From Trypanosoma brucei (Eukaryota): DNA of 64,000 nt. This document shows positions 1,956 to 29,733 of this stretch, one piece after another. Location: NCBI GenBank assembly GCA_000002445.1, contig CP000067.1, positions 832,001-896,000 of the forward strand, given 5' to 3'. Made by a program: the position numbers and the translations under genes. Numbering within the stretch: position 1 is the first letter of the stretch; every line of letters starts with the position of its first letter. Under the pieces are notes generated by a model that had not been told where the DNA came from, did not search any database, and was given only the letters and a program-made list of their open reading frames with translations.

Positions 1956-1956
<1 letters not shown>

Positions 1957-10079: not shown

Positions 10080-10800
10080 CTCCAAAACCATGAAAAAAAG
10101 GACATATTGCACACATTTGTTTTCCCCTTATTTTCCTTCCTGTCACTGTTCCTTTCCCAGCCCAGTTCCAGTTTCCCATGACAGCACGGGTCCAATACCT
10201 TCCTCTTTTATAATGAACAATGGGGCATTTGATGGAATGTTTGCAGCAGCACCGCAACACCCCGCCACACATTGCAGCCTCGTGAGGTGATGTTTGAACT
10301 CTGTTGGTATGGGGGTCATCCTCTCCCTGCCTTTCTGGTATTTTAGCATTGCTTTCTCAACCAACCCAATAAAAGAAAAAGCAAAGCAAGGCAAAGAGCA
10401 AAAAGAGACGAGCCGTCCACTGACTCACGTTTTAGTTGATGGGGATGTTACTCTCGATGTAATGAATAATGGATATGCTGCTTCATTAGTAACTAAAACA
10501 GCGACCCCTTTTCCTTTCATTCGTTTCCGTCCCAAATGTCACCACCTCAGGCCACACACACACGCACAATCTCAATCCCTCTTCCCCTTTCATCCGAACA
10601 TTAAAATTTCACGGCAGCAAAATTGAGGGAAACGGAGAAATGACGAAAACCTACGCCGATCGGGACTCGAACCCGAGACCTTCGCCGTGTTAAAGCGACG
10701 TCATAACCACCTAGACCATCAGCGCTTGCCCGCTCCGGCAATTTTTGTATCATTTCCTCAGTTCAATTGATTTAAACACGAAAACGACTGACGGTGGTGG
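10080..10800. repeat. Inverted repeat, left arm (721 bp): noncoding segment plus tRNA-Val plus the 3' 12 nt of tRNA-Leu
   Basis: By eye, this is the reverse complement of 29012-29733 at about 98% identity. The ORF-track 110-aa ORFs at 10294-10626 (+) and 29186-29518 (-) are identical. Boundaries were located by direct comparison. Confidence 0.85.
10652..10725 (-). tRNA. tRNA-Val(AAC)
   Basis: 74 nt. Acceptor stem GCGCTGA/TCGGCGT (two G-U pairs); anticodon arm TCGCT-TTAACAC-GGCGA; T-arm TCGGG-TTCGAGT-CCCGA; GG in the D-loop. A T4 run follows on the minus strand. An identical copy lies at 29087-29160. Confidence 0.9.
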
Positions 10801-10822
10801 GGTTCGAACCCACGCCCCTAGA

Positions 10823-10861
<39 letters not shown>

Positions 10862-10868
10862 CACCGCC
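10789..10868 (-). tRNA. tRNA-Leu(TAG), type II with long variable arm
   Basis: Acceptor stem GGCGGTG/CACCGTC; D-arm GCC-GAGTGGTCTAAG-GGC; anticodon arm CCAGA-TTTAGGC-TCTGG; T-arm GTGGG-TTCGAAC-CCCAC. A T4 run follows downstream. Confidence 0.85.
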
Positions 10869-10926
10869 ACCACCGCCGGTTTCGCGGGCGAATTTCTGTT
10901 ATAAACTTACTCCCGCAGTAAAAATA

Positions 10927-10999
10927 TGCGATCGGTGAGGCTCGAACTCACGACCTTGGGATTATGAAACCCACGCGCTGCCGACTGCGCCACGCTCGC
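10927..10999 (-). tRNA. tRNA-Met(CAT), elongator-type
   Basis: 73 nt with standard numbering. D-stem GCGC/GCGC; anticodon loop TTCATAA; T-arm GTGAG-TTCGAGC-CTCAC; G1:C72 and T54, so not initiator-like. A T5 run follows downstream. An identical copy lies at 28774-28846. Confidence 0.85.
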
Positions 11000-13900
11000 A
11001 GCAGCTTCCGTCACATTTCGGATTGCCTTTTAACGGCTGGAAATCAGTTTCCAACCAGCAGGCTCATTCTGTAAATTCGCGCTGGGAAGCTTACATCCGC
11101 TTCTTCTATGCGAACACAACAATATACTTTCAAAATAACTACTCACTGTGAAAGTATCATATTTTACTGTTTTTATGTCGTCCCACTGAAGGAGTTTGGT
11201 GTATACATGAAGCATCCGCCGCAACGACAGCTGAAATAACACCTTTTCTCCACGCGAACGCCATTGAATATGGGTTGCCTAGAGGACTGGACGGAACAAC
11301 GGGAAGTACGTGTACACGGCGTCTGGAGCTCGTAAAAAATTAAATGGAATAGTTATACTTGTATTTATTTCAACGGTTAAGAAGATTGATCGTTATGGTA
11401 AAAGTATGGAAAGAAGTAAAAATAAGGTAGCGTTGAATGAGGAGTCGTGAAGGGGATGAAAATGAAAGAATGCTCCAACTCGCAGACTTTATTCTCACTA
11501 ACTAGATCCGCTTTACCGTATATTTCAATGTAGTATAAGAGTGTTATTCTTCCGCGAGGTGAGTGTGAGATTTGTAAAGGTGAGCATCCCCTCACGCTGT
11601 TGGTACAGAGCCATCGGTGTCGGAAGCGGCTGCTGCCATATATCCGCGGAATGTGAATGACCTCCAGGAAACAGTAGAAGCCACCAGAAAGGAAGTAAAG
11701 TGAGATTTTCCCATGATAATCCTAGAATCAACGCTAGCCCTTGGTTTCTCACAAGTTTGTATCTTTTTTTTTCCTTTATCGTCTTGTTACGTTTTGCAAT
11801 TCACCCTTTTTTTTCGAGCCTCTCCTTAAACTTTTTTTTCAAGAACCTTTCTCGTTTCTTATTTAAATAATTATTAGAGTTTATATCCTGGATACCTTCA
11901 TGAAGTTCTTTTGCGTCCCTTTTTGAAACCTATGTGCATGGCACCGTTGTAATGTTTCACAAATCCTGTTGCATTCCATGCGATTGAGATTCATATCTTC
12001 CCTGGAGGCGTCAGAAATTGCAGAGTAATGGTGAGTTGAGTTTACCGTTAGGGGGAGGCCAAATGACTGTTCGCACCCTGTCATCAGGGAGACATGGCAG
12101 CTCACCGGCTGTTGGTTGTTGGGGTAACGGGGGAAGTGGAAACGATATTGGCTCCCTGATGTGGGAACCGATATCTTTGTTGTCCCTTGCACGCTCTTGC
12201 ATGTTCCCGTGGGCGTGTAGGGACAACTCCTGTTGTGGAGAAGACATCAGAGGCAACTGTAATTCACCTACTGGCGTATGGTAAGGGACTGTCTCTTCAA
12301 ATTTTTTGGGGGGAAAAAGGAAGGCTTCTTTTGCGTTTTGAAGGGGACATACATCCACGCGACGAAGAAGTGAAATGCAAAATGATGCCTGTATTTCCGG
12401 AACATTGATATAGCAAACCCTTCTAGGGGTTGACGAGTGTCAAAATCGGCAGAAAATAGCACAGGTAGAATGCAAGGCTCGTAACAAAATGGAAACTGGA
12501 AGAGTGTCAGTTAAACCGAAACTCGCTCAGGAGTAGTGGAACACACTCGTGTCAATATTTTTCTGTGGCCAAATCTGGAATCACCTGACCACTACTGGAA
12601 GGTTGCATGGAAGAGATAGTTTGAAGGTTTGCAGAAAGGCAATGGAGTAGCAATTCGACGAAGGAGGAAACTTAAATACCCCACATATCACGCGGAATGC
12701 TGCCTTGGAATAGGATTCCGCAGAATATGAGGGATAAATGTTATTGCCGCCTGAAGGAATAATAGTCACTTATAGGGATAGGGGTTTACGATGGGAATTA
12801 GGCAGTTCCTTCAGCTGTTGGAAGTTTTGAAGCAAATAGACAAGACAGCAAAAACAATGAACTTCCTGAGGAATCAGAGCAGGCAATGCAAAAGGCACTG
12901 ACCGAAGCGCAGAGTAGAACACGATACAAATGTAGATGGTGCGATTATTAGCGTGTTCATGTGTCGGGGCCCATTCTGCACACAAGGAACAAACACTCGG
13001 TGGAAGTTGGAATGAAAAAAGATACAAATGATAAAGCATCTCCGGCATCAAAGACAGCTCCAAAGACCCTCCAACGCTCGCAGTACAAAATGCGTGCAAC
13101 AAAGTGACCTCACTGAACTCATGCAGCGGAAAGGCGAATGCAAAATAGGAAAAAAAGCACAACACTGTAAAAAGTGGGTACTACTCATCTTCCCTAAAAC
13201 CGTCACAACACCCCTCCCCAGGAAGCGCTGCGTAGAGAAAGCGGTCGAAAATGCGGCAAACAGATGGTTGCCGTTTCGCATGCAACTGGCACGTTTCCAT
13301 GCAAGCTATTTCAACCAAAGGATTTGGAGCTAAACACAGAGGAGCGTCAACAGACTCAAGATAACTGTCAAAGGAATTCACACTGAAACGACCATGGGTT
13401 GGTTCAACACAAAAAAACACGCTCTTAATTAACTCTATAAGATTCTTTCGCATTCCACAGTTTCTCACGTCTCCACTGACTTGTTTCCTCTCTACGAAAA
13501 AGCAGCTCTACTTGTTTGCTACACGTATCTAAAGGGATACTGACACTTTTTTGAAACGTGTTCATCGCCTCATATCGCTTATCTTCAGACTGTTCCCACA
13601 AAGGAGCTGAAGAGCTTAATAAAAATAATAAAAATATGTTCGCATTCATACCATCAAACCCCAATAACGGAAAACATTGAAGAAAAGAATTTCCCTGCAG
13701 TTACTGATATAACATGAAGACCAACAAAAGAACTTACTCAACACTCCATAGATGGTATGTAATTAACATGCACCCAGAAACATACGCAGCCGATAGATAA
13801 TAGAAGGATCGAAATAAGTCCTCAAAATATATGCGATACAGCCTCCACTTTTTTTTTGACCTTCGCCTACGCACAAACCGCTATAAAATTGCTATGTTCC

Positions 13901-15179
13901 TTTTGAGTCGACAATTATTTTGCGTTTCTGTCAGCGCATATATCGATCTTTTCAAAAACTTTCAAACAATGCGTACAATCCTCCCCACCTAGGCAATTGC
14001 AACCAAATTTTACCAACCACCTTTACCACATATTTTGCCGAGAAAATACCCCGTGATTTGATTTTTCGTTAAATTTTTCGCCATGGAAAAGTGCATTTGT
14101 TGCTTTTCTTCGCTTCATTAATTTTACCACTTACTCTAGTAGTGTGTTTCAGGACCTCCAATAATTTGCTGCTATCGTTTATTTTGTTGGAGAATTTCTC
14201 TTCGCTAGATAAAACTTTACTGAAGGTTTTGAACGTTGTCAGTAAATCTGGCTTCTGCGGTGCACAAGCGCCGTATATTTATTTTTTTCATAAGTGCGTG
14301 CCTCAGAAATAGCACTTCCCTGGCTCAGTAATGGGACAACCACGCCCCTGTTGACTTTATTTTGAAGCTTTCTCTTACTACATCTCGGAGTAAGTTTCTT
14401 TCCCTCATGAGCTCATAAATTTCCACCACTGGTTCTTTCTCTTTTCTAGAGATGTCATTTTCACACGTCAAACCAGCTGTGATGACCTCAGATGTTCTAT
14501 TTTTTATTTTCAGTGTGGTCCCAAGGTCTCTTTCATGTAGTGAAGTTCCGGAATTGGTCTTTTATGGCTTTCATCTGTCTTTGTTCACTTCTTTTTTCAC
14601 TTTGTTTCTGCGAGTCACATATTCCAACCGTTGTCACTATGTTTTGTTAGCTCCTTGGTAGTATGTCTGTTCTGACCCACAGTAATCTGGCACTTCTTTC
14701 TTTCCATCCGTTCCATAGTGTTCATATAACCTCACCTTCGTCGTCGCAGACAAAACCATCATTTGCTCTTGATCACCTTCTTTGTACACGTAACGTTCTA
14801 TTTTCTCCCCCTTGCCATACACACGCAAATACGCAAAAATGGAGAGAAAAGTATACATCCTTGCAACCTGAACTCCCTTGTTTACCTATAACTTCAACAT
14901 AGTTCGGTCTTTTCTCGATCCACTGTATCCCCTTCTGAAAAAAAGACAAAGCATATGAGCGTACATGCTTCGTATCAAACGAAAACTCAAACTGAAGCAC
15001 GTGTGTGACCATGCATGCTCTCGCGTGATATTTAGTATCGTATACCTGTGCTACTAAGAAAATATAAAGATGCGCGCAAAGAGGAAAGGGGGTGTCTATG
15101 ACAATAGTGGCTCTGAAGATGAAGCTTAAAAAGGGAAGTAACACAAACGAGTGGAAACTGTATTCACACATTCTTGATA

Positions 15180-16109
15180 TTATACTGAAGACGCCATAAG
15201 ACTACTGAAAAGGGAATGGAGTTTGTCAGAGAGGGTGTCAATTCTGGAAGCACGTTCCGACAGCTTAGAAAGCATGACTTCAATTTCTGAGGATACATCA
15301 TTTATTTCTTTGAGGTGAGGAAGAAAAGACTTGAAAACTCTTGTTACGTTCACATCTTCTACCAGGCCGTATCTATTCGCAAGGACCTTGTCCCTACCCA
15401 AATTACCCCTTATTCCCCTGTGTTTGAAGATGTGTCCATGGGAAGTGGACACCGAATCAACTCTGTCAGCCAGTTTTCTTCCTCCAGTGCTATACGCCGT
15501 TCCATTGTGAAACCTCAAGTCGACGTGCTCGTCCCTGCTGCTGTCAAATTCGGTAATTATATCAGAAACGTCCCTTCCAGTTAAGGTTCCATCACACGTG
15601 ACTTGTATCCCATTATTCCTACAAAAGCCATGTGAATTATTCAGCATGCGCACTGCCTCCGATCCAACTCTGTACATCTCCTCCATTGTGGCTGCATACC
15701 TGGTTCCGGTTCTTACAACATCCATTGCCTTTTCCTCCATATAAGAAACACTAAGATCGAATTTCTTCCGTAAGTAGCTTTCACCTTCGAAAACACTCTC
15801 CATCTCATTTAATATTTCCTTCATTTTATCACCCTTCTCTTTTTTCATAAATGGTTTTCCGCGTAGGAATAATTCTCTCCACGCTGCATTCTGTTCTTCT
15901 GCCGAATACCTCTTCTCATACACCTCCTCTGCATGTACTCTAGTTCTTAAAAGTAGATCCTCCGTCACATTAATCATCCAATTAAGCTTCTTCACGACAC
16001 AGTCAATTTGTTTAAGGGTTGAGAGTGCTTCTTTATCAGTCTCCTGCATTCGAGAATCCACCAAGACAACAGAAATTGCAGCAAACACTACCGGAACTAT
16101 CCTCACCAT
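15180..16109 (-). CDS. Array gene B1: secreted-type ~310-aa protein of an unrecognised family, with signal peptide and no GPI-type C-terminus
   Basis: Start chosen at the internal Met (MVRIVPVVFAAISVVLV) of the 15180-16187 ORF, matching the signal-peptide starts of its paralogs. Conserved blocks are IDCVVKKLNWMINVTEDLLLRTRVHAEEVY and DKMKEILNEMESVFEGESYLRKKF. Confidence 0.7.
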   Translation of the reverse strand: MVRIVPVVFAAISVVLVDSRMQETDKEALSTLKQIDCVVKKLNWMINVTEDLLLRTRVHAEEVYEKRYSAEEQNAAWRELFLRGKPFMKKEKGDKMKEILNEMESVFEGESYLRKKFDLSVSYMEEKAMDVVRTGTRYAATMEEMYRVGSEAVRMLNNSHGFCRNNGIQVTCDGTLTGRDVSDIITEFDSSRDEHVDLRFHNGTAYSTGGRKLADRVDSVSTSHGHIFKHRGIRGNLGRDKVLANRYGLVEDVNVTRVFKSFLPHLKEINDVSSEIEVMLSKLSERASRIDTLSDKLHSLFSSLMASSV

Positions 16110-16254
16110 CCCAAGCACTTGTACCACGTAAAAGAGAACTACAGAAAAATACACGTTCTTTAAGAGAAGCACCACACACACACACACGCTAGTAGCGTGA
16201 AACTTACAATTGTAAAAATATTTTAGAAAATTACTAACATTTCCCCACCTATTT

Positions 16255-17439
16255 CTAAAACGGTACCAAGACGCACAAAAGCAACGCTACCCATGGTAGA
16301 GTTTGTTGAAACTTCACCACACCATTATTATCTTCACTATAATTATCATTCCATGGAGAATCCTTCGCGTTTCCTAATGTTTCCGTAAGTTCATTGGTCC
16401 TTTCCTTCATTTTAACAATACTTCTGACTTTTTCTTCAAGTTCCAGAAGCAACCTATCGAGTACAGCTCGTTGAGCTGTGATGGAGGTGTTTCCTGCAGA
16501 TATCTTTATGACGCTGGCACTCAGCAGATCGATTAGTTCCTGAAATTCTTCTCCAATAGAACTGAAGTTTGCCATAAGTCTGTCATTCTGTGTGTAAAAG
16601 AGGCCACCAGAAAGTTCATTGATAAAGGGCTTCTTCCCTTTTGTGTACGGCTGGTATGTCGTCGTGATATAGCATCCATAAACAGCATCGGCACCTTGAT
16701 CTCCTGCATTTCCCATAGTCAAACTGAGTTCTGTATTAAGAGGATTTTCATACTCAGCAAGGCCACCCTCGCTGTGCTGTGGTGGCTCAACTGTGCAGTC
16801 TCTGGGAACACTGCCGCGTTTACCACCTCTTATGCAATCGCCAGTTGCCCCTCCATCCACCACAAGACAGCAATTTCCATATCCTAGTGCTGCATGGTGG
16901 AAAACTTCCACCATATCCTTAATCCAGTACGCGTACGAGTCAGACATATTCAGAAGGTTCCACGATGGCAACCTCATAGCCCGCAGTGAAGTATTCATGT
17001 TTTTAATGCTTTTTTTTAACTCCAATAGTGACTCTTCCGTTTCAATCAACAACTTTGCCACCTCATTCACTCTTTTACCTCCATCTGGAATTACTTCTTT
17101 CAGAACATCCACTAAAATTGTTTTTGTTCGAACACGTGCACTGTAGTGAGCTACAATTTTTTCACAGTCTTCCACTATTTTCTCCCCGAATTTCATATTA
17201 TGTGTCACATTGTTCCTCAGTTCCCTCAGCTTCCTAACTATACTACAGATGGCATTTGCATCACTTTGTGTCAGTGCCTTGCCCTTACCCTTTTCATCAC
17301 CCTCCGGTCCACTGTTAGCACATGCCACCACCAGAAAACTAAACATAATCACCACTCCTCCAACTGAAATCATATTATCACCTTCATACACAAAACAAGC
17401 AAAAAGGAGCTTTGAAAGCATGTGCTTCTTATTCCCCAT
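16255..17439 (-). CDS. Array gene A1: ~395-aa predicted GPI-anchored surface glycoprotein of an unrecognised family
   Basis: N-terminal hydrophobic signal (an alternative start is Met23, MISVGGVVIMFSFLVVACA). Many NxS/T sites. Motif CCLVVDGGATGDC. Hydrophobic C-terminus LPWVALLLCVLVPF. The first ~135 codons are identical to A2 and A3. Confidence 0.75.
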   Translation of the reverse strand: MGNKKHMLSKLLFACFVYEGDNMISVGGVVIMFSFLVVACANSGPEGDEKGKGKALTQSDANAICSIVRKLRELRNNVTHNMKFGEKIVEDCEKIVAHYSARVRTKTILVDVLKEVIPDGGKRVNEVAKLLIETEESLLELKKSIKNMNTSLRAMRLPSWNLLNMSDSYAYWIKDMVEVFHHAALGYGNCCLVVDGGATGDCIRGGKRGSVPRDCTVEPPQHSEGGLAEYENPLNTELSLTMGNAGDQGADAVYGCYITTTYQPYTKGKKPFINELSGGLFYTQNDRLMANFSSIGEEFQELIDLLSASVIKISAGNTSITAQRAVLDRLLLELEEKVRSIVKMKERTNELTETLGNAKDSPWNDNYSEDNNGVVKFQQTLPWVALLLCVLVPF

Positions 17440-17728
17440 ATCATACTGTTATTCAAGTAAAGACAAATCTTCGCTGACACATTATCAAGGCACCCAAAAA
17501 CATGATATCGCAATGCGACCACACGTAGTCGGCCAGAAGCAGCAATAGCATATAAACACACATTCATATTTGCACATGCACATTCATTTCATGGTTATTG
17601 GACGGTTATTTTATGGTTATTTGCAAGAGGAGGGTGCAGTGAGAGTGTTAATACTGCTGACAGTTGTTGAGGCACAGGGTGTAAAAAGAGAAGGTGAGCG
17701 AAAGAGGCGTGTGTTCTCTTTTTCATTT

Positions 17729-18658: not shown

Positions 18659-18779
18659 CCTATAAACTTATTCCACACAAAATCGAACTACAGAAAATAA
18701 TGCCCCTTTCCGGAAAGAGACCACACCGCTAGTAACATGAAGCTGTTATTAAAAATATTTTATAAAATTACTCACTTTC

Positions 18780-19970: not shown

Positions 19971-20259
19971 ATCATACTGTTATTCAAGTAAAGACAAATC
20001 TTCGCTGACACATTATCAAGGCACCCAAAAACATGATATCGCAATGCGACCACACGTAGTCGGCCAGAAGCAGCAATAGCATATAAACACACATTCATAT
20101 TTGCACATGCATATTCATTTCGTGGTTATTGGACGGTTATTTTATGGTTATTTGCAAGAGGAGGGTGCAGTGAAAGTGTTAATACTGCTGACAGTTGTTG
20201 AGGCACAGGGTGTAAAAAGAGAAGGTGAGCGAAAGAGGCGTGTGTTCTCTTTTTCATTT

Positions 20260-21204: not shown

Positions 21205-21337
21205 TCCACACTCTTACTTCAGGAAAAACTAAGCCAGTTCGAAGAGCGTACCTTTTTTGGAAGGGCACATCGCTTACACGCTAGTAGTAATAAGCTGTCA
21301 ATTGCACAAATATTTTAGAAAATTACACACTTTCCAC

Positions 21338-22525
21338 CTATTTCCAAAATACAGAAAAGACGAAAAGAAGCAGAGCCACTTCTGATAGATTTGGTTTCTT
21401 GCTCATACCATCACTCTCATAACTCTCATTATCATACCAGGAAACATCTTCTATGCTTCCTAATCTTTTCGTAACATCCATGACTCTCTTTTTCCTTTTA
21501 AGGATATCTCCAACTTCTTCCTCAAACCTCAGTAACAAGCTGTGGAGTATAGTTCGTTGACCTGTGATAGATGTGTTCCACGTGAAAATGTCGCTGATAC
21601 TAGTGTTCAGTTGATCGATTAGTTCCTGAAATTCTTTTCCAACAGAACTGAAGTTGGCAACGACGTTGTTATTCTGTGTGTAAAAGAGTCCTCCTGAAAG
21701 TTCATTTATAAAGGATTTCTTTGTATTAAAGCCACCTGCGGTGCTTGTGATGTAGCAACCGTAACTATTTGGGGTTTTACCGTAGTTTCCTGAATTTCCC
21801 ATAGTCAAACTGAGTTCTGTATTAAGAGGATTTTCATACTCAGCAAGGCTACCCTCGCTGTGCTGTGGTGGCTCAACTATGCAGTCTCTGGGAACTATTC
21901 CTCGTTTTCGGTCAAAGGGACAATCTTCCATTGACCCTCCATCTACCACAAGACAGCAACTCCCGGGGCTAAACGCTGCATAGTGAAAAAAATCCACCAT
22001 ATCCTTAATCCAGTACGCATATGAGTCCGATATATTTACAAGGTTCCACGATGGCAACCTCATAGCCCGCAGTGAAGCATTCATGCTCGTAATTGTCTTC
22101 CCTAATCCATCCCTCAGTTCCCCCATCTTCTCCAGGATTCTTTCCATCCCACTGAAACTTGACTTTTCTTCTGCCATTACTTTCTCCAACACGCTCACCA
22201 GCATTTTCTTAGACATAACTTTCGCGCCGTAGTAACTTTTCACGTCTTCAGCCTCGTCCACTATTTTCTCCCCGAATTTCATATTATGTGTCACATTGTT
22301 CCTCAGCTCCCTCAGCTTCCTAACTATACTACAGATGGCATTTGCATCACTTTGTGTCAGTGCCTTGCCCTTACCCTTTTCATCACCCTCCGGTCCACTG
22401 TTAGCACATGCCACCACCAGAAAACTAAACATAATCACCACTCCTCCAACTGAAATCATATTATCACCTTCATACACAAAACAAGCAAAAAGGAGCTTTG
22501 AAAGCATGTGCTTCTTATTCCCCAT
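21338..22525 (-). CDS. Array gene A3 (395 aa): predicted GPI-anchored surface glycoprotein
   Basis: Same N-terminus as A1 and A2. Motif CCLVVDGGSMEDC. C-terminus LSEVALLLFVFSVFWK. Confidence 0.75.
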   Translation of the reverse strand: MGNKKHMLSKLLFACFVYEGDNMISVGGVVIMFSFLVVACANSGPEGDEKGKGKALTQSDANAICSIVRKLRELRNNVTHNMKFGEKIVDEAEDVKSYYGAKVMSKKMLVSVLEKVMAEEKSSFSGMERILEKMGELRDGLGKTITSMNASLRAMRLPSWNLVNISDSYAYWIKDMVDFFHYAAFSPGSCCLVVDGGSMEDCPFDRKRGIVPRDCIVEPPQHSEGSLAEYENPLNTELSLTMGNSGNYGKTPNSYGCYITSTAGGFNTKKSFINELSGGLFYTQNNNVVANFSSVGKEFQELIDQLNTSISDIFTWNTSITGQRTILHSLLLRFEEEVGDILKRKKRVMDVTKRLGSIEDVSWYDNESYESDGMSKKPNLSEVALLLFVFSVFWK

Positions 22526-22813
22526 ATCATACTGTTATTCAAGTAAAGACAAATCTTCGCTGACACATTATCAAGGCACCCAAAAACATGATATCGCAAT
22601 GCGACCACACGTAGTCGGCCAGAAGCAGCAATAGCATATAAACACACATTCATATTTGCACATGCATATTCATTTCATGGTTATTGGACGGTTATTTTAT
22701 GGTTATTTGCAAGAGGAGGGTGCAGTGAAAGTGTTAATACTGCTGATGCTTGTAATTAACATTGGCTCAAAAGGAATTATGTTCACGCATTTTTTTTATT
22801 ATACTGAAGACGC

Positions 22814-23740
22814 TCAAAGGCTGTTAAAGAGGGATTCAAGTTTCTTTTCGAGAATAGAAAACTTGTGAACACGTTCCGACAGCTTGGAAGGTGTGGCTTC
22901 AACTTCGGAGGTGAGATTACCGACTTCCCTTAGATGTGTGACAAACAACTTGAGAAGCTTCGCTGCACTCACGTGTTCTACCAAGTCGCGTTCATCCATG
23001 AGAACTCTGGCCTTTCCCAAACTATTACCTATTCCTCTGTGCTTGATGACACGTCCAAACGTGGTCGATACATTATGAACTCTATCAGCCAGCTTGTTTC
23101 CCCCTTTACTCCAGTGACCTCCGTTCTCAAACCTTAGATCTATATTTTCTTCAGTGCCGCTACCAAATTCAGCAACGATAATAGATAAATTTCCCCCAGA
23201 GAAGGCTCTCTCGCATGTAACATTGGCTTCATAAATTTCACAACTTTTTGGTACTTCTTTTCCAGAACGCACAGCTTCCAATCCAACTCTGTACATCTCC
23301 TCCATTGTGGCTGAATACCTGATACCGACTCTTACAATAGTCATCATTTTTTTTTCAAAGTAAGAAACATTAAGGTTAAAGTTTTTCTGCAAGTAGCTTT
23401 CAGTTTCAACGATTCTCTCCATCTCATTTAATATTTCCTTCATTTTATCACCCTTCTGTTTTTTCATAAATGGTTTTACGTACACGAATAATCGTTCCCA
23501 GGCTGCGTATCTTTCCTCCAGCAAATACTTCTTTTTATATACCTTTTCTGCATGCACTCTAGCTCTTAAAAGTAGATCCTCCGTCACATTAATCATCCAA
23601 TTAAGCTTCTTCACGACACAGTCAATTTGCTTAAGAGTTGAGAGAGATTCATCTCCGTGTGTTGTTTCCGCTATAACCCCCCAAAAAACAACTAGAACAA
23701 CTAAAGTGACAGCAAACACCACCTGAATCATCCTCATCAT
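22814..23740 (-). CDS. Array gene B4 (308 aa): signal peptide, no anchor signal
   Basis: MMRMIQVVFAVTLVVLVVFWGVIA signal. Conserved B blocks with a more divergent C-terminal half. Confidence 0.7.
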   Translation of the reverse strand: MMRMIQVVFAVTLVVLVVFWGVIAETTHGDESLSTLKQIDCVVKKLNWMINVTEDLLLRARVHAEKVYKKKYLLEERYAAWERLFVYVKPFMKKQKGDKMKEILNEMERIVETESYLQKNFNLNVSYFEKKMMTIVRVGIRYSATMEEMYRVGLEAVRSGKEVPKSCEIYEANVTCERAFSGGNLSIIVAEFGSGTEENIDLRFENGGHWSKGGNKLADRVHNVSTTFGRVIKHRGIGNSLGKARVLMDERDLVEHVSAAKLLKLFVTHLREVGNLTSEVEATPSKLSERVHKFSILEKKLESLFNSL

Positions 23741-23870
23741 ATGTACCTATTCCACGAAAAGCGAATCACAGGAAAACGTGTAGCCTTTAGTAAGGGTACA
23801 ACACACGCGGTAGTAGAACATAATTGTCGTCTGTATAAATATTTTAGATCACTTACTTCTCCACATACTT

Positions 23871-25019
23871 TTAGAAGAATACCAGGAAGAATAGAAACAG
23901 ACTCACCCCTCGGAGGGTTGGTTGCGTCCCCATACCATCGCTATTCCCACTCTCGTTACCAAACCATGGAATGTTCTTCGTGCTACCTAATGCTTCCGTA
24001 ATTGCTTTGTTCTTTTCTTTCTCAAGGACATGTCTGATTTCTTTCTTCAGCTTAAGTAGCAAACCATCGAGTACAGCTCGTTGTCTTGTAATTGATGTGT
24101 TCCACGCGGAAAAATTGTTTGTGACTCTTCTTAGCGGATCGATTAGCTCCTGAAATTCCTTTCCAACAAAAGTGAAGTTGGCCATAAGTCTGTTATTCTG
24201 TGTGTAAAAGAGGCCACCAGAAAGTTCATAAATGAGAGATTTTTTCCCCCTGCTGTAAGTGTCATTTGTTGTTGTGATGAAGCAGCCACATAGCGGGTAT
24301 TCGCCTTCGTCCCCTGCATTTCCCATCGTTAAAGTGAGTCCTTCATCAAGAGGGTTTTTGTACTCAGCAAGGCCACCCTCGCTGCGCTGTGGCGGGTAAA
24401 TAGTGCAATCCGTGGGGACACTGCCGCGTTTACCACCTCTTATGCAATCTCCCGTTGCCCCTCCATCCACCACAAGACAACAATTCCCGCTTCCGAATGC
24501 TGTCTGGGCAAAGAGTTCTACCATATCTTTCACCCAGTACGCATACGAGTCAGACATATTTGTGAGGTTCCACATTTGCACACTCATGCACCCGAGTGAA
24601 GCGTTCACATTCGTAATACTTCTTTTCAACACCTGGATCGGCTCCTCCATATCACTCAGCAGCTTTCCCATCACGCTCAACTTTTCTCCTTCTTCAGGAA
24701 TTAGTTTTCCCAAAACCTTCACTAACATTTTCTTTGCTTCAACACGTGTGCTGTAGTAAGTAGCAACGTTTTCGCCATTGTCCACGATTTTTTCACCCAA
24801 TTTCATATTACGCGTCACGTTATTTGCCAACTCCCTCAACTGTTTGACCACATTGCAAATGGCATCTGCATCACTTTGCGTCAGCGCCTTGCCCTTACCC
24901 TCGATGTCACCCTCCGCTTGACCGTAAGCACATACCACCACTAAACAAGCCACAACCATTCCCCTTTTGAGTGGCATCATATTATCCCCTCCTTCCAGAA
25001 ACGCAAGAAAGGCAAACAA
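23871..25019 (-). CDS. Array gene A4 (382 aa): divergent A-type predicted GPI-anchored surface glycoprotein
   Basis: Different signal peptide (MMPLKRGMVVACLVVVCAYG), but it shares ALTQSDADAICNVVKQLRELANNVT, CCLVVDGGATGDCIRGGKRGSVP and the ELSGGLFYTQNN blocks. C-terminus LRGVSLFLFFLVFF. Confidence 0.7.
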   Translation of the reverse strand: MFAFLAFLEGGDNMMPLKRGMVVACLVVVCAYGQAEGDIEGKGKALTQSDADAICNVVKQLRELANNVTRNMKLGEKIVDNGENVATYYSTRVEAKKMLVKVLGKLIPEEGEKLSVMGKLLSDMEEPIQVLKRSITNVNASLGCMSVQMWNLTNMSDSYAYWVKDMVELFAQTAFGSGNCCLVVDGGATGDCIRGGKRGSVPTDCTIYPPQRSEGGLAEYKNPLDEGLTLTMGNAGDEGEYPLCGCFITTTNDTYSRGKKSLIYELSGGLFYTQNNRLMANFTFVGKEFQELIDPLRRVTNNFSAWNTSITRQRAVLDGLLLKLKKEIRHVLEKEKNKAITEALGSTKNIPWFGNESGNSDGMGTQPTLRGVSLFLFFLVFF

Positions 25020-25092: not shown

Positions 25093-26325
25093 TTACGAAA
25101 ACACCAACAAAACAAAAATGCTCACCATTAAATCGAAATGGGCATCACCCTCCGTGTCAACATCCAAATTTTCTGCCTTGCCCCAGATATCTATGTTTCC
25201 TCCAAGTTTGTACTCAAGAAACATTTCCTCAGCGTCATGCTGTAAATCTTCCAACTCGTAAATATGGGAGTTTGCTTCACTTTCATACTTCTCCATGTCT
25301 TCCATGTTCTTTGTGGCATTGGTGAGACGATTGTGCCACGGTATGCCGCCATGGGATAAGGTGTGTTTGTAATTCACACACGTTGTTCCGGGTCTGTGGC
25401 CATCACATAGAAATGTTTCATTACTCGTATCATTCACGTGGCCAAATACGCCTTCCACCTGAAACTTGTCCTGCCTCATGTTAACAGATTTATCAAACTC
25501 CTCCAATGCAGCCTTTAACAGCTTTGAGTTGGATGCAATGTGCCTGTACACGCATCCGCGCTTTACCACTTGCCAAGCATCTTTGAGTGTCATTGATGAA
25601 TTAACCTCACATTTCTCTTCGGCCAAGGCGCACTCATTGCTCATGCCCGTCCACTTATTTTTTTCTGGTCGCCTCAAGTAGGTCCTGCAGGGCGAACTAT
25701 GCCCGTTGTAATAGTAGCTGCTGCTGTTCGCCTCGTCTTTCGCCTCTCCCACACATACACAAAAAAAGTCGTTAACAAGTGTTTTTCCAGTTTCATTACC
25801 GTTGCTTCCACAGCTTTCCAGAGCAGATTCATTGCTGTTGAACAGTAAACTTTTATTAGTTTCCATAATATCGTCAATGGGTCTGTTGGTCTTATGTGCC
25901 TCATCCACTAAATCACCATACACAGCTTTCATCATGCTCTCCTCAGCCTTACTGCTCTCCCGCATCGCCCTCTTTCTATTCCTGTCAATCTCTCCCTTCA
26001 CCGCTTTTGCTCTTTTGTATAGTTTCTCAATCCCTTCACGCGCCTTTTGGCTCACAGAAGTTTCTTTTCCGTTCGCTCTCGCCTCACTCACCATTACCTC
26101 GAACCTCTTCATAATCTCATCTTCCTTCTCACGGTTTCTAAATTCCGGCCTTGGCACCTTTGCTTGAGTGATCCTGTAAATCTTACAAAGGATCTCAAAC
26201 TCTCCGGTGTTGTGTTGGTAATCAGTAATGTTGAAAACACCCTTCTGTTGACCCTGACTTCCTCTTATTGATCCCCATAAAAGAGCAACCAACAATAGCA
26301 CCCCAGCGCAACCACGTCTCTTCAT
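25093..26325 (-). CDS. Gene C1 (410 aa): predicted GPI-anchored, Cys-containing, charged helical surface protein; paralog of C2
   Basis: Signal MKRRGCAGVLLLVALLWGSIRG. Motifs LVNDFFCVCVGE and CVNYKHTL are shared with C2. Multiple NxS/T sites. Hydrophobic C-terminus LMVSIFVLLVFS. Confidence 0.7.
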   Translation of the reverse strand: MKRRGCAGVLLLVALLWGSIRGSQGQQKGVFNITDYQHNTGEFEILCKIYRITQAKVPRPEFRNREKEDEIMKRFEVMVSEARANGKETSVSQKAREGIEKLYKRAKAVKGEIDRNRKRAMRESSKAEESMMKAVYGDLVDEAHKTNRPIDDIMETNKSLLFNSNESALESCGSNGNETGKTLVNDFFCVCVGEAKDEANSSSYYYNGHSSPCRTYLRRPEKNKWTGMSNECALAEEKCEVNSSMTLKDAWQVVKRGCVYRHIASNSKLLKAALEEFDKSVNMRQDKFQVEGVFGHVNDTSNETFLCDGHRPGTTCVNYKHTLSHGGIPWHNRLTNATKNMEDMEKYESEANSHIYELEDLQHDAEEMFLEYKLGGNIDIWGKAENLDVDTEGDAHFDLMVSIFVLLVFS

Positions 26326-26435
26326 AATTTCCTATTACAACCAAATGGGAAGCAAATATCAACAACATGCCACGCAGCAGCAGTCATTTAGGAAAATGCG
26401 GAAGCTGGGAAAAGCTAAAAATATAACACGGAAAG

Positions 26436-27767
26436 TTAAGCGACAAAGGCAGTCAGCGCCATCATTGCTAAAACAGTCAAAGATATTGAAAAGCCGGCCC
26501 CATCCTCTTCCACCTCGTTCACTTCACTCTCCATCATTAAGTGTTCCAAATTCAAGTTAATCTTTGCTGCTGCACTTTTCATATTCTCCGCTAATTTCCA
26601 CAGCCTTCCAAGCAAAACCTTTGCCTCCTTATTGTGCCTTTCCATTTCCACCAGGTACTTCTCCGCATCCAGCAACCTCAGCTGCCACTCAATTCCCTTC
26701 TGCGTCAGAAGTCTATACGCATAATTCACGCACATTTGGTCATTCTTCCCCGTGCATATGTTTTCGCTGCGGTCAAAAACACCCGTATGTATTTTTTTTG
26801 CTCTCCCAAACACGTAGGTCCGAAATCCCTCCGATTCTTTCATGTTCATGATTATATTCTCCCTCTGCCTTCCAAGAAGCTTATTGAACTCCCTCACTGC
26901 ATCTTGGATTTTTTCTGGCGTTATCAATTTCAAATTTTCATTTTTTGGACAGGCTTCATCCTTTATCTTAAACCAGCCGGGGCCAAAAGCCACATCACTT
27001 CCATCATACGACACATTTTTCCACAGTTTCTTTCTACCCGGCCCCTTGATACTTTTGTGACAAACGGTCTCATTATTCTCTTCTCCAACGCACAAGCAAA
27101 AAAAGTCCCCCACGAGCGAACGCCCAGCCATGGCATCCTCAGTCGAGGGATGATACCCAGCTCCGCACGTTTCCTCTGCGGAGTTTCCTATTAAAGTGTC
27201 TCCGGTGTGCACCGCAAACTTTTCAAACTCCTCCTTCTCCATCAGCCTCCCAGCATTCGCCCCATAAACGACTTGCGCCATTCTTTCGAGTGCAAATTTC
27301 CTTGACACATTCGCCAGGCGCCGTTCCTCTCTTATTCCACTCACGAGTATGGTTGCCTTTTCCGCTAGTTTTATTAACTTCTCATGTGTTACCCTCCACC
27401 GAATAATATCATTTGCACGATGCATACTCATCTTAGCGGCCCCACTATTGTTAACTGTTCCTTTCCTCCTTTCCATAGCTTCTTTATACAAGGAATCCTT
27501 CACGTATGTCGCTTTCACAAACATCTGTAGCCTGTCGATGATACTCGTTAGATTCGCAGGCTCTTCCATTATTTTCTCTGGTTCCCCCTCCGCCAACCTC
27601 AATATCTCACACATTTGGTTGAACTCTTTTTCATTCACTAACTTTGAATCCTCTCCACACACCAAGTGGAAGGCACCAAAGGCCGTTAACAAGAATGTCA
27701 CTATGATTTCCTTCATTATCAAAGCCCTGCTACAAACAAAAAGAAAGTAAAGGCACCAACAAGACAA
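26436..27767 (-). CDS. Gene C2 (443 aa): predicted GPI-anchored surface protein; paralog of C1
   Basis: The probable start is the internal MKEIIVTFLLTAFGAFHLVCG signal at 27716. Motifs LVGDFFCLCVGE and CVNYAYRL. Hydrophobic C-terminus SLTVLAMMALTAFVA. Confidence 0.7.
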   Translation of the reverse strand: MSCWCLYFLFVCSRALIMKEIIVTFLLTAFGAFHLVCGEDSKLVNEKEFNQMCEILRLAEGEPEKIMEEPANLTSIIDRLQMFVKATYVKDSLYKEAMERRKGTVNNSGAAKMSMHRANDIIRWRVTHEKLIKLAEKATILVSGIREERRLANVSRKFALERMAQVVYGANAGRLMEKEEFEKFAVHTGDTLIGNSAEETCGAGYHPSTEDAMAGRSLVGDFFCLCVGEENNETVCHKSIKGPGRKKLWKNVSYDGSDVAFGPGWFKIKDEACPKNENLKLITPEKIQDAVREFNKLLGRQRENIIMNMKESEGFRTYVFGRAKKIHTGVFDRSENICTGKNDQMCVNYAYRLLTQKGIEWQLRLLDAEKYLVEMERHNKEAKVLLGRLWKLAENMKSAAAKINLNLEHLMMESEVNEVEEDGAGFSISLTVLAMMALTAFVA

Positions 27768-28605: not shown

Positions 28606-28612
28606 AAAAAAA
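28606..28612 (-). terminator. RNA polymerase III T7 terminator for tRNA-Glu
   Basis: An A7 run on the plus strand immediately 3' of the minus-strand tRNA. Confidence 0.6.
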
Positions 28613-28614
28613 GT

Positions 28615-28686
28615 TTCCGGTGCCGGGGATCGAACCCGGGTCTAGCGGGTGAGAGCCGCTTGTTCTAGCCACTATACCACACCGGA
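28615..28686 (-). tRNA. tRNA-Glu(CTC)
   Basis: 72 nt. Acceptor stem TCCGGTG/CACCGGA; anticodon arm AGCGG-CTCTCAC-CCGCT; T-arm CCGGG-TTCGATC-CCCGG. A T7 run follows on the minus strand (28606-28612). Confidence 0.9.
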
Positions 28687-28773
28687 GATGCATCTCGTCA
28701 AATCTACACTTACGTTCTAAACCATAAGTTGTGATGCAGACGTTCATAATTTACTATCGAGCGGCCCCGCACC

Positions 28774-28846
28774 GCGAGCGTGGCGCAGTCGGCAGCGCGT
28801 GGGTTTCATAATCCCAAGGTCGTGAGTTCGAGCCTCACCGATCGCA
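28774..28846 (+). tRNA. tRNA-Met(CAT), elongator-type, second copy
   Basis: Sequence identical to the 10927-10999 copy, in opposite orientation. Divergent from tRNA-Glu, 87 bp away. T6 run at 28848-28853. Confidence 0.85.
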
Positions 28847-28847
28847 C

Positions 28848-28853
28848 TTTTTT
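28848..28853 (+). terminator. RNA polymerase III T6 terminator for tRNA-Met
   Basis: A T6 run begins 2 nt after the discriminator base. Confidence 0.6.
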
Positions 28854-28889
28854 GATTTCCACCTGCGAGTTTTTCAGCAGGAGAAAACC

Positions 28890-28970
28890 CGTCGACAGCA
28901 GGGTTCGAACCTGCGCGCGAGATCGCATTTGATTTCAAGTCAAACCCCGTAACCACTTGGGTATGTCGAC
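28890..28970 (-). tRNA. tRNA-Ser(TGA), type II
   Basis: 81 nt. Acceptor stem GTCGACA/TGTCGAC; anticodon arm TTTGA-CTTGAAA-TCAAA, which pairs perfectly; 13-nt variable arm; T-arm GCAGG-TTCGAAC-CCTGC. A T4 run follows downstream. Confidence 0.8.
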
Positions 28971-29011
28971 AACGGTTTACCCGACTATTTCAAACTAATA
29001 AAAAAACAGAT

Positions 29012-29733
29012 CCACCACCGTCAGTCGTTTTCGTGTTTAAATCAATTGAACTGAGGAAATGATACAAAAATTGCCGGAGCGGGCAAGCGCTGATGGTCTA
29101 GGTGGTTATGACGTCGCTTTAACACGGCGAAGGTCTCGGGTTCGAGTCCCGATCGGCGTAGGTTTTCGTCATTTCTCCGTTTCCCTCAATTTTGCTGCCG
29201 TGAAATTTTAATGTTCGGATGAAAGGGGAAGAGGGATTGAGATTGTGCGTGTGTGTGTGGCCTGAGGTGGTGACATTTGGGACGGAAACGAATGAAAGGA
29301 AAAGGGGTCGCTGTTTTAGTTACTAATGAAGCAGCATATCCATTATTCATTACATCGAGAGTAACATCCCCATCAACTAAAACGTGAGTCAGTGGACGGC
29401 TCGTCTCTTTTTGCTCTTTGCCTTGCTTTGCTTTTTCTTTTATTGGGTTGGTTGAGAAAGCAATGCTAAAATACCAGAAAGGCAGGGAGAGGATGACCCC
29501 CATACCAACAGAGTTCAAACATCACCTCACGAGGCTGCAATGTGTGGCGGGGTGTTGCGGTGCTGCTGCAAACATTCCATCAAATGCCCCACTGGTCATT
29601 ATAAAAGAGGAAGGTATTGGACCCGTGCTGTCATGGGAAACTGGAACTGGGCTGGGAAAGGAACAGTGACAGGAGGAAAAATAAGGGAAAACAAATGTGT
29701 GCAATATGTCCTTTTTTTTCATGGTTTTGGAGA
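29012..29733. repeat. Inverted repeat, right arm (722 bp), containing tRNA-Val and a 12-nt relic of the tRNA-Leu 3' end
   Basis: CCACCACCGTCA (T-stem plus acceptor 3' strand of tRNA-Leu) is retained at 29012-29023, but the rest of the gene is absent. Homology then continues through tRNA-Val to 29733. Confidence 0.85.
29087..29160 (+). tRNA. tRNA-Val(AAC), second copy inside the inverted repeat
   Basis: Identical to the 10652-10725 copy. A T4 run follows immediately. Confidence 0.9.

What the first reader, a model, noticed from the sequence alone, without database searches (positions are those of the whole stretch)
10080..29733. A 721-bp inverted repeat of about 98% identity, carrying tRNA-Val, brackets the entire 19-kb surface-gene island; its breakpoint lies inside tRNA-Leu
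The arms 10080-10800 and 29012-29733 are reverse complements. The left arm ends within an intact tRNA-Leu(TAG), whereas the right arm retains only the last 12 nt of that tRNA (CCACCACCGTCA). This shows that a segment was copied with a breakpoint inside a tRNA gene. Inverted repeats of this size and identity can mediate inversion (flip-flop) of the intervening segment, which would reverse the array relative to the flanking transcription units. The high identity suggests ongoing homogenisation.
Basis: seen in the sequence. Interest (0 to 1): 0.7.

Follow-up and report, generated by a model that had tools for sequence, protein, structure and literature searches.

The report
Self-homogenising inverted repeat around trypanosome surface-gene island
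On Trypanosoma brucei chromosome 4, two mirror-image 721-bp copies of a stretch carrying tRNA-Val flank an 18-kb block of parasite-specific surface-protein genes and keep overwriting each other, which is a real and tidy case of a known kind of genome structure, with no evidence yet that the block flips.

Summary
Arms 10080-10800 and 29012-29732 are reverse complements, 721 nt each, with 4 mismatches and 2 one-base indels (99.2%). Homology stops 12 nt inside tRNA-Leu(TAG).

The window is T. brucei TREU927 chromosome 4. The repeat sits in a convergent strand-switch region between a ubiquitin-conjugating (UBC) E2 gene and an FtsH-like protease gene.

T. b. gambiense DAL972 has the same repeat, the same boundaries and the same island orientation. 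A four-arm comparison gives 28 columns where both arms of one subspecies differ from both arms of the other, and none that preserve orthology. Between subspecies the arms diverge 4.1-4.6%, like neutral DNA. The high identity therefore comes from ongoing gene conversion, not constraint.

Outgroups (T. theileri, T. cruzi, T. rangeli, T. vivax, L. donovani) show one ancient tRNA cluster here with a single Val next to FtsH. The second Val arm and the island are additions in the T. brucei lineage. The 12-nt Leu fragment sits exactly where Leu lies next to Ser-Met-Glu in T. cruzi and T. rangeli, so it is more likely a deletion scar than a copying breakpoint.

Flip-flop inversion is plausible but not shown. 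This is a new member of a known kind, of moderate-to-low interest.

The parts
10080..10800 (.). Left arm of the inverted repeat, on the UBC E2 gene side (721 nt): about 570 nt non-coding, tRNA-Val, a 63-nt spacer and the last 12 nt of tRNA-Leu
   Evidence: All six differences from the other arm lie in the outer 141 nt; the inner 580 nt are identical.
29012..29732 (.). Right arm of the inverted repeat, on the FtsH-like protease gene side (721 nt), reverse complement of the left arm
10652..10725 (-). tRNA-Val(AAC), copy in the left arm
   Evidence: ARAGORN; Rfam 55.4 bits. It is one of only two Val-AAC genes in T. brucei, both on chr 4 (PMC2695483).
29087..29160 (+). tRNA-Val(AAC), copy in the right arm
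   Evidence: Its position next to the FtsH-like gene is shared with T. vivax, T. theileri and L. donovani.
10789..10868 (-). Intact tRNA-Leu(TAG), the only copy in the genome; its 3'-terminal 12 nt form the inner end of the left arm
   Evidence: 60.6 bits. Single-copy status from Table 1 of PMC2695483.
29012..29023 (+). 12-nt relic of the 3' end of tRNA-Leu (CCACCACCGTCA) at the inner end of the right arm
   Evidence: It has the same position and orientation relative to Ser-Met-Glu as the full Leu gene in T. cruzi and T. rangeli.
10927..10999 (-). Elongator tRNA-Met, left copy, just inside the left arm
   Evidence: It forms an inverted pair with 28774-28846 (pair I2).
28774..28846 (+). Elongator tRNA-Met, right copy
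   Evidence: An inverted Met pair flanking Glu is also present in T. theileri and T. cruzi.
28890..28970 (-). tRNA-Ser(TGA), single copy in the genome; it occupies the slot between Val and Met where the left side has Leu
28615..28686 (-). tRNA-Glu(CTC), the innermost tRNA on the FtsH-like gene side
25093..27767 (-). Two genes with a VSG_B domain (ESAG2 / VSG-related type), the first genes of the island
   Evidence: Pfam PF13206, E = 5.8e-27 and 4.5e-36
15180..25019 (-). Four tandem ~2.53-2.55-kb units, each with one ~395-aa ESAG11-related gene and one ~310-aa gene
   Evidence: T. b. gambiense has only two units.
11001..15179 (.). Interval of about 4 kb between the array and the left tRNA cluster, without long ORFs or recognisable pseudogenes
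   Evidence: Only partly alignable to T. b. gambiense: 11026-12836 matches at 92.9% and 11001-12836 differs by 6.7% substitutions; no match was found for 12837-14844.
8584..9246 (+). Ubiquitin-conjugating enzyme E2 gene, the last gene of the + strand transcription unit
   Evidence: PF00179; 100% match to the TREU927 protein
30494..32653 (-). Mitochondrial FtsH-like AAA/M41 protease gene, the last conserved gene of the - strand transcription unit before the repeat
   Evidence: PF00004 and PF01434; orthologues found across trypanosomatids

Best explanation
The repeat is a genuine inverted segmental duplication inside an ancient tRNA gene cluster. That cluster marks the convergent strand-switch region between the ubiquitin-conjugating E2 (UBC) gene and the FtsH-like protease gene on T. 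brucei chromosome 4.

Ancestrally there was one cluster with a single tRNA-Val next to the FtsH-like gene. In the T. brucei lineage the segment [about 570 bp + Val + spacer + Leu] was copied in inverted orientation to the UBC end of the cluster. A T. brucei-specific island of surface-protein genes (VSG_B-type, ESAG11-related and a ~310-aa family) lies between Glu and the second Met.

The original Leu then lost its 5' 68 nt. This left a 12-nt relic, which now sets the inner limit of homology. The copied Leu is the only functional one.

Since then the arms have been kept nearly identical by repeated intrachromosomal gene conversion, not by selection on their sequence.

Shown here: the structure, its presence in two subspecies, concerted evolution, the single-Val ancestral state, and the absence of the island from outgroups at this site.

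Inferred: the order of events, that the relic is a deletion scar, and any function. Possible functions are a doubled Val-AAC gene dose and two identical tRNA-bearing boundary modules facing the two converging transcription units. Because conversion is frequent, occasional crossover should invert the island, but this has not been observed.
For: Structure.

Same repeat, boundaries and orientation in T. b. gambiense DAL972, with no assembly gaps.

Concerted evolution: 28 concerted, 0 orthologous and 2 crossed columns. Differing alignment columns between arms are 6 (TREU927) and 21 (DAL972) within a genome, against 39-44 between subspecies.

Neutral rate: substitution divergence between subspecies is 4.1-4.6% in the arms, 1.7-6.7% in neighbouring unique non-coding DNA and 0.4-0.6% in flanking coding sequence. 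The 110-aa ORF in the arm is frameshifted in DAL972. Rfam finds only the tRNAs.

Ancestral state:
- T. theileri: FtsH> Val(-) Met(-) Glu(+) Met(+) Ser(-) Leu(+) <UBC, with no island.
- T. cruzi: the same order with one Val.
- T. rangeli, UBC side: Leu Ser Met Glu.
- T. vivax and L. donovani: Val directly after FtsH.

Relic position: the T. brucei Ser-Met-Glu block is collinear with the T. rangeli block that follows Leu (E = 1.6e-62).

Literature: T. brucei has exactly two Val-AAC genes, both on chr 4, and one Leu-TAG gene (PMC2695483). Lineage-specific surface-gene arrays at strand-switch regions are a known T. brucei feature (PMC3605285; PMC2837033; PMC2854126).
Against: The order of events is a parsimony argument from five outgroup loci, three of them cut by contig ends (T. 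vivax, T. rangeli, T. grayi).

Spacer sequences give no significant support for either the deletion-scar or the copy-breakpoint reading (p = 0.80 and 0.05).

The ~570-bp non-tRNA part of the arm matches nothing in any outgroup, so its original side cannot be fixed.

T. vivax has Val(-) Ser(+) with no visible Leu relic. This either pushes the events back to the salivarian ancestor or needs an independent loss.

No functional data (chromatin marks, transcription, small RNAs) could be examined.
Confidence: 0.72

Rival explanations
1. Flip-flop segment. Homologous recombination between the arms repeatedly inverts the 18-kb interval, so both orientations coexist in T. brucei populations. Because the island lies between two converging transcription units, each flip would make it co-directional with the other unit and would swap the Leu-Met and Ser-Met-Glu tRNA groups.
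For: The arms are 721 nt at 99.2% identity and demonstrably exchange sequence. Some conversion events are expected to resolve as crossovers (inference). One linked 2-site variant (AACAA / ACCAG, window 10217/10220 and 29595/29592) sits on opposite arms in TREU927 and DAL972, as two flips with different crossover points would produce. At this locus the Glu gene between the inverted Met genes has opposite orientation in T. theileri and T. cruzi. The T. brucei Ser-Met-Glu block is inverted relative to its flanks compared with T. cruzi, T. rangeli and T. theileri.
Against: Both available assemblies have the same orientation. The crossed variant can also arise from conversion in both directions followed by allelic recombination, or from heterozygosity in a consensus assembly. 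The outgroup differences can be explained by one ancient inversion in the non-salivarian lineage. No population or long-read data could be reached with these tools.
Confidence: 0.2
2. Selected boundary or terminator module. The two arms are kept identical because each acts as the same RNA polymerase II stop or insulator: about 570 bp plus a head-on tRNA-Val. Together they seal the island off from both converging transcription units and allow its separate, stage-specific expression.
For: Read from each flanking gene, both units meet the same sequence in the same order, with tRNA-Val antisense to the incoming polymerase. tRNA genes at convergent strand-switch regions are linked to Pol II termination in trypanosomatids (PMC2695483). 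ESAG2/ESAG11 clusters at such regions are co-regulated and upregulated in bloodstream forms (PMC2837033).
Against: Outside the tRNA, the arm sequence changes between subspecies as fast as neutral DNA (4.1-4.6%). This argues against sequence-level constraint. Outgroups manage with other tRNAs (Leu) at the UBC end. No chromatin or transcription data were examined.
Confidence: 0.15
3. Source of double-stranded RNA. Read-through transcripts that contain both arms fold back and feed the RNAi pathway, as for the seven long inverted repeats already described in T. brucei.
For: All seven long, near-identical inverted repeats found in TREU927 (422 bp to 10 kb) yield siRNAs (PMC3447711). This repeat has similar length and identity.
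Against: It is not among those seven, none of which is on chr 4. The arms are 18 kb apart with seven Pol III genes in or just inside them, so a single transcript spanning both is unlikely. No small-RNA data could be checked.
Confidence: 0.08
4. Assembly artefact: a collapsed or mis-joined contig at a repeat.
For: None found. The only caveat is that DAL972 contigs were ordered and oriented against TREU927 (PMC2854126).
Against: The two arms differ at six positions and carry different inner neighbours (Leu versus Ser). The window and the DAL972 locus have no N runs. DAL972 arms carry their own 28 lineage-specific changes on both arms. Both Val genes are annotated in the published tRNA catalogue.
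Confidence: 0.02

Closest known systems
Long near-identical inverted repeats of the T. brucei core genome (IR1-IR7 of Tschudi et al. 2012, PMC3447711)
   Same: Same organism; hundreds to thousands of bp; at least 99% identity between arms; both arms on one chromosome. The authors also remarked on the puzzlingly high identity.
   Different: This one is on chr 4 and not in their list. Its spacer is 18.2 kb, whereas their loci span about 3.6-12 kb in total. It carries tRNA genes. siRNA production has not been tested. Here the identity is explained by demonstrated concerted evolution.
Inversions mediated by inverted segmental duplications through non-allelic homologous recombination, such as the FLNA-EMD region of the mammalian X chromosome (recalled from memory, not checked here)
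   Same: Inverted duplicates with concerted evolution flank a gene-bearing segment.
   Different: In those cases both orientations are documented within and between species. Here both genomes examined share one orientation.
tRNA gene clusters at convergent strand-switch regions of trypanosomatids (L. major chr34-I / T. brucei chr04-III synteny, PMC2695483)
   Same: This is that locus. The cluster is conserved from Leishmania to Trypanosoma between the same flanking genes.
   Different: In T. brucei the cluster has been split by an 18-kb island, and its Val end has been duplicated in mirror image. Neither point is described in that paper.
T. brucei-specific surface-gene arrays and VSG/ESAG 'islands' at strand-switch regions (PMC3605285, PMC2854126, PMC2837033)
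   Same: Lineage-specific tandem arrays of VSG_B-type and ESAG11-related genes at a strand-switch region, with copy number differing between T. b. brucei and T. b. gambiense.
   Different: Those descriptions do not mention flanking inverted repeats or tRNA duplication.
Bacterial genomic islands integrated at tRNA genes
   Same: An island next to a tRNA gene, with a short copy of the tRNA 3' end at the far side.
   Different: That class has a direct repeat and an integrase. Here the fragment is inverted, is part of a 721-nt repeat, lies in a eukaryote, and no recombinase gene is present. The resemblance is superficial only.

Membership tests
T. brucei long inverted repeats (Tschudi et al. 2012) | Two inverted copies of at least ~400 bp at ~99-100% identity on one chromosome | tested here: met
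   721 nt, 99.2%
T. brucei long inverted repeats (Tschudi et al. 2012) | Listed among the seven repeats found by their genome-wide survey | tested here: not met
   Their Table 3 lists chr 2, 2, 7, 7, 8, 10 and 11 only
T. brucei long inverted repeats (Tschudi et al. 2012) | Dicer-dependent 22-25-nt siRNAs arise from the arms and spacer | not testable with these tools
   No small-RNA read data available
Segment invertible by recombination between inverted duplications (flip-flop) | High-identity inverted arms flanking the segment | tested here: met
Segment invertible by recombination between inverted duplications (flip-flop) | Sequence exchange between arms (concerted evolution) | tested here: met
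   28 concerted versus 0 orthologous columns
Segment invertible by recombination between inverted duplications (flip-flop) | Both orientations observed among individuals, strains or close species | tested here: not met
   TREU927 and DAL972 have the same orientation. Only two genomes were compared, and DAL972 was ordered against TREU927. Inversion relative to distant species is ambiguous.
tRNA cluster at a trypanosomatid convergent strand-switch region | tRNA genes lying between two converging polycistronic units | tested here: met
   + strand genes run to 9246 and - strand genes from 15180 onward; tRNAs lie at 10.65-11.0 kb and 28.6-29.2 kb
tRNA cluster at a trypanosomatid convergent strand-switch region | Conserved position between the same flanking genes in other trypanosomatids | tested here: met
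   T. theileri, T. cruzi, T. rangeli, T. vivax and L. donovani. Synteny with L. major chr34-I is stated in PMC2695483.
tRNA cluster at a trypanosomatid convergent strand-switch region | Pol II termination with H3.V, H4.V or base J enrichment at the site | not testable with these tools
   No ChIP or transcription data
T. brucei-specific surface-gene island at a strand-switch region | Genes absent from the syntenic site in other trypanosomatids | tested here: met
   T. theileri has only tRNAs between the two flanking genes. T. cruzi has GP63 and a retroelement there instead. L. donovani has only tRNAs.
T. brucei-specific surface-gene island at a strand-switch region | Members of VSG/ESAG-related surface families in tandem, with copy number varying between subspecies | tested here: met
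   VSG_B domain. Orthologues are named ESAG11-related. Four units in TREU927 against two in DAL972. Signal peptides and GPI signals were judged only by eye from the hydrophobic ends.
Integrase-mediated genomic island at a tRNA gene | Direct repeat of the tRNA 3' end at both island borders | tested here: not met
   The 12-nt copy is inverted and is the tip of a 721-nt inverted repeat
Integrase-mediated genomic island at a tRNA gene | Integrase or recombinase gene within the island | tested here: not met
   All ORFs of at least 150 aa in 10.8-29.0 kb belong to the three surface families. Pfam on representatives finds only VSG_B.

The most novel reading that the evidence does not exclude
The two arms form a recombinational switch. 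Crossover between them flips the 18-kb surface-gene island between the ends of two converging transcription units, in some cells or strains. This would change which unit, or which boundary chromatin, controls the ESAG-like and VSG-related genes, and would make a heritable, reversible expression polymorphism outside the telomeric expression sites. Ongoing gene conversion would be the by-product that keeps the switch working.
Probability: 0.06. Interest if true: 0.75.

Novelty: new member of a known kind. Interest (0 to 1): 0.35.

Why it matters
The repeat gives a clean, dated example of concerted evolution between inverted repeats in a trypanosome core chromosome. This answers, for this locus, the question Tschudi et al. 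raised about why such repeats stay nearly identical.

It also shows how a lineage-specific surface-gene island became embedded in an ancient tRNA cluster at a transcription-termination zone.

The locus holds both Val-AAC genes, both elongator Met genes and the only Leu-TAG and Ser-TGA genes of T. brucei. Rearrangements here are therefore constrained by translation needs.

If the island does invert in populations, it would be a simple marker of mitotic or meiotic recombination and a possible source of expression variation. None of this changes current understanding of trypanosome biology.

Tried and rejected
- Hidden RNA gene in the ~570-bp non-tRNA part of the arm. Rfam at gathering and at E <= 1 finds only the tRNAs, plus a sub-threshold tRNA-like hit on Leu.
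- Protein-coding arm. The 110-aa ORF has a TTG start, is frameshifted in DAL972 and carries many amino-acid changes.
- Decayed island genes in 11.0-15.2 kb. tblastn with the island proteins finds nothing beyond the end of the last gene.
- Other copies of the arm in the 64-kb window. None.
- Origin of the arm's non-tRNA part. Sensitive blastn against the intergenic DNA of T. vivax, T. theileri, T. rangeli, T. grayi and L. donovani matches only the tRNA genes and the Ser-Met-Glu block.
- Spacer homology, to decide between deletion scar and copy breakpoint. Not significant.
- T. grayi loci. Contigs end within 300 bp of the flanking genes, so they are uninformative.
- T. congolense. The orthologue is known but no contig is held.
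- Exact-sequence lookup of the UBC E2 protein found nothing.
- Literature on strain inversions at this locus. Nothing found. The H3.V/base J paper has no chr 4 entry in its main text.
- The bacterial-type tRNA integration model was rejected: inverted rather than direct repeat, and no integrase.

Full report
**1. What the window is**

The 394-aa ORF at 16255-17439 (-) is 100% identical to a hypothetical protein of Trypanosoma brucei brucei TREU927, on a 1,590,432-bp record. Its T. b. gambiense relatives are named 'ESAG11-related'. The gambiense counterpart lies on FN554967.1. The two tRNA-Val(AAC) genes found here match the published names Tb_04_tRNA_Val_1 and _2. The locus is therefore on chromosome 4.

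Genes on the + strand end with a ubiquitin-conjugating enzyme E2 gene (UBC) at 8584-9246. All long ORFs from 15180 to 63454 are on the - strand. The finding thus lies in a convergent strand-switch region.

**2. The observation**

The repeat is real.
- Ungapped detection gives 680 nt at 99%.
- Gapped alignment gives 10080-10800 against 29732-29012: 721 nt each, with four mismatches and two single-base indels, or 99.2%.
- All six differences lie in the outer 141 nt. The inner 580 nt are identical.

ARAGORN and Rfam agree on seven tRNA genes.
- Left group: Val(AAC), Leu(TAG) and elongator Met, all on the - strand.
- Right group: Glu(CTC) -, Met +, Ser(TGA) - and Val(AAC) +.

Homology stops at 10800, 12 nt inside the 3' end of the intact Leu gene (10789-10868). 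The right arm ends with only those 12 nt, CCACCACCGTCA, at 29012-29023.

Between the arms lie:
- the inner tRNA genes;
- about 4 kb without long ORFs or recognisable pseudogenes;
- four tandem units of ~2.53-2.55 kb, each with an ESAG11-related gene and a ~310-aa gene;
- two genes with the VSG_B domain.

**3. Is it an artefact?**

This is unlikely.
- The arms differ from each other and have different inner neighbours.
- Neither the window nor the gambiense locus has N runs.
- T. b. gambiense DAL972 has the same repeat: L002 arms 2726-3445 and 16828-17547, 720 nt at 98%. It has the same tRNA order and the same orientation of the island relative to the flanking genes.

One caveat applies to the orientation. 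DAL972 contigs were ordered and oriented against TREU927 (PMC2854126).

**4. Homogenisation**

I aligned the four arms, two per subspecies, and classified the variable columns within the arm.

| Pattern | Columns |
|---|---|
| Both TREU927 arms share one state, both DAL972 arms another | 28 |
| Arms on the same side agree across subspecies (orthology kept) | 0 |
| Crossed (each state on opposite sides in the two subspecies) | 2 |

Arms within one genome differ at 6 alignment columns (TREU927) or 21 (DAL972). Arms from different subspecies differ at 39-44 columns.

Between subspecies the arms differ by 4.1-4.6% substitutions. Adjacent unique non-coding DNA differs by 1.7-6.7%, and the flanking coding sequences by 0.4-0.6%.

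The arm sequence therefore drifts at about the neutral rate, yet the two copies in each genome stay together. This is the signature of gene conversion, not purifying selection. Three further results fit a non-coding arm: the 110-aa ORF in the arm is frameshifted in DAL972, Rfam finds nothing but the tRNAs, and no other copy of the arm exists in the window.

**5. Ancestral state**

I used the FtsH-like protease and the UBC E2 protein as anchors and fetched the syntenic loci. All orders below are written reading away from the FtsH-like gene ('FtsH>') toward UBC ('<UBC').

| Species | Order |
|---|---|
| T. theileri | FtsH> Val(-) Met(-) Glu(+) Met(+) Ser(-) Leu(+) <UBC; no protein-coding genes between |
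| T. cruzi | Same tRNA order with Glu flipped; one Val; GP63 genes and a retroelement between Val and FtsH |
| T. rangeli | UBC side: Leu, Ser, Met, Glu, then contig end |
| T. vivax | FtsH> Val(-) Ser(+), then contig end |
| L. donovani | FtsH> Val(-) Ile(+) Met(+) Leu(-) Ser(+) <lipase-like gene |
| T. brucei | FtsH> [~570 bp] Val(-) Leu-relic(-) Ser(+) Met(-) Glu(+) {island} Met(+) Leu(+) Val(+) [~570 bp] <UBC |

Four conclusions follow.
- (a) The tRNA cluster at this strand-switch region is ancient. Published synteny of L. major chr34-I with T. brucei chr04-III agrees.
- (b) A single Val next to the FtsH-like gene is ancestral.
- (c) The Val arm at the UBC end and the island are additions in the T. 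brucei lineage.
- (d) This site attracts lineage-specific surface genes: GP63 in T. cruzi, and VSG/ESAG-like genes in T. brucei.

**6. The boundary inside tRNA-Leu**

In T. cruzi and T. rangeli, reading from UBC, the order is Leu(-) Ser(+) Met(-) Glu(+). In T. brucei, reading from the FtsH-like gene, the Leu relic(-) is followed by Ser(+) Met(-) Glu(+). The Ser-Met-Glu block, spacers included, aligns collinearly with the T. rangeli block: 72.6% over 427 nt, E = 1.6e-62. The relic therefore sits exactly where a full Leu gene sits in relatives. The Leu-Ser pair in Leishmania has the same orientation relative to the FtsH-like gene.

The most economical history has four parts.
- The ancestor had FtsH> Val(-) Leu(-) Ser(+) Met(-) Glu(+) Met(+) <UBC.
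- The non-salivarian clade inverted the Leu-to-Met block.
- The T. brucei lineage made one inverted copy of [~570 bp + Val + spacer + Leu] at the UBC end.
- The original Leu then lost 68 nt.

T. brucei has only one Leu-TAG gene, which explains why exactly one copy survived.

Under this history the 'breakpoint' is a deletion scar that now limits conversion tracts. The arm holding the fragment is the original, not the copy.

Two other histories need about four steps each. One is outward growth of a palindrome from the inverted Met pair. The other is duplication of the Val arm followed by a flip of the whole cluster and a further conversion. Neither is excluded.

Spacer comparisons do not discriminate between them. 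I put roughly 60% on the scar reading.

**7. Inversion**

No direct evidence was obtainable. The two assemblies agree in orientation.

Three indirect points bear on it.
- A linked two-site variant (AACAA / ACCAG) lies on opposite arms in the two subspecies. Two flips with different crossover points would produce this. So would conversion in both directions followed by allelic recombination, or heterozygosity in a consensus assembly.
- The Glu gene between the inverted Met genes has opposite orientations in T. theileri and T. cruzi. The Met repeat in T. theileri extends to 136 nt. Small-scale flipping between inverted repeats may therefore have happened at this locus.
- Because conversion between the arms is frequent, some crossovers are expected (inference).

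An inversion would make the island co-directional with the UBC unit and would swap the inner tRNA groups. The junction sequences would stay unchanged, so an inversion might be nearly neutral. I rate the presence of both orientations in natural populations at about 0.2-0.3, and a regulatory switch at about 0.06.

**8. Possible function**

The two arms carry the only two Val-AAC genes of T. brucei. T. cruzi has one per haplotype, and L. major has two on different chromosomes. Retention of the duplicate may therefore reflect tRNA dosage.

Read from either flanking gene, polymerase meets the same ~570 bp and then a head-on tRNA-Val. tRNA genes at convergent regions are associated with Pol II termination. 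ESAG2/ESAG11 clusters at such regions are co-regulated. A boundary role is plausible. It is not supported by sequence conservation of the arms and could not be tested.

The repeat is not among the seven siRNA-producing inverted repeats reported for TREU927.

**9. Comparison and verdict**

This is a further, apparently undescribed, long near-identical inverted repeat of the T. brucei core genome. It lies in a known syntenic tRNA cluster and surrounds a known type of lineage-specific surface-gene island.

It behaves like inverted segmental duplications elsewhere that evolve in concert. It is not a bacterial-type tRNA integration: the repeat is inverted and there is no integrase.

- Novelty: new member of a known kind.
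- Interest: 0.35. The concerted-evolution result and the reconstruction are neat and testable, but would not surprise a specialist.

Noticed in passing
window 15180-25019; L002 7374-12175: The tandem array has four ~2.5-kb units in TREU927 but only two in T. b. gambiense DAL972. Units within TREU927 are 65-96% identical, so this is diversification and not only a change in gene dose.
   Followed up: partly
L002 6130-7360 (orthologue of window 25093-26325): The second VSG_B-domain gene is split over two reading frames near residue 221 in DAL972. It is a pseudogene or a sequencing error there, and no gene was called for it.
   Followed up: partly
L004/L005 12139-22139; L012/L013 12200-20678 (T. 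cruzi): At the same strand-switch region T. cruzi carries GP63 (Peptidase_M8) genes or fragments and a reverse-transcriptase fragment between tRNA-Val and the FtsH-like gene. This is an independent insertion of a surface-gene island at the same site.
   Followed up: partly
L006 14166-14724 (T. theileri) versus L012 11518-11897 (T. cruzi): tRNA-Glu lies between two inverted elongator tRNA-Met genes and has opposite orientation in the two species. In T. theileri the Met repeat extends to 136 nt at 88%. This looks like a small flip between inverted repeats.
   Followed up: partly
window 10652-11000 and 28615-29160: By the published tRNA catalogue, this one locus holds both Val-AAC genes, both elongator Met genes and the only Leu-TAG and Ser-TGA genes of T. 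brucei.
   Followed up: yes
window 9247-12836 and 27768-30493 versus L002: Non-coding DNA of this strand-switch region differs by 1.7-6.7% between T. b. brucei and T. b. gambiense, against 0.4-0.6% in the flanking coding sequences. It is a fast-evolving interstitial region.
   Followed up: partly
window 1899-1982 and 35464-35547: Long (GT)n and (CA)n-like dinucleotide tracts were reported as weak inverted matches. They are simple-sequence repeats and unrelated to the finding.
   Followed up: no
window 17729-18658, 20260-21204, 22814-23740, 15180-16187: The ~310-aa family that alternates with the ESAG11-related genes has no Pfam match. Its N-terminus is hydrophobic but its C-terminus is not, so it may be secreted rather than GPI-anchored. 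Its family identity was not established.
   Followed up: no
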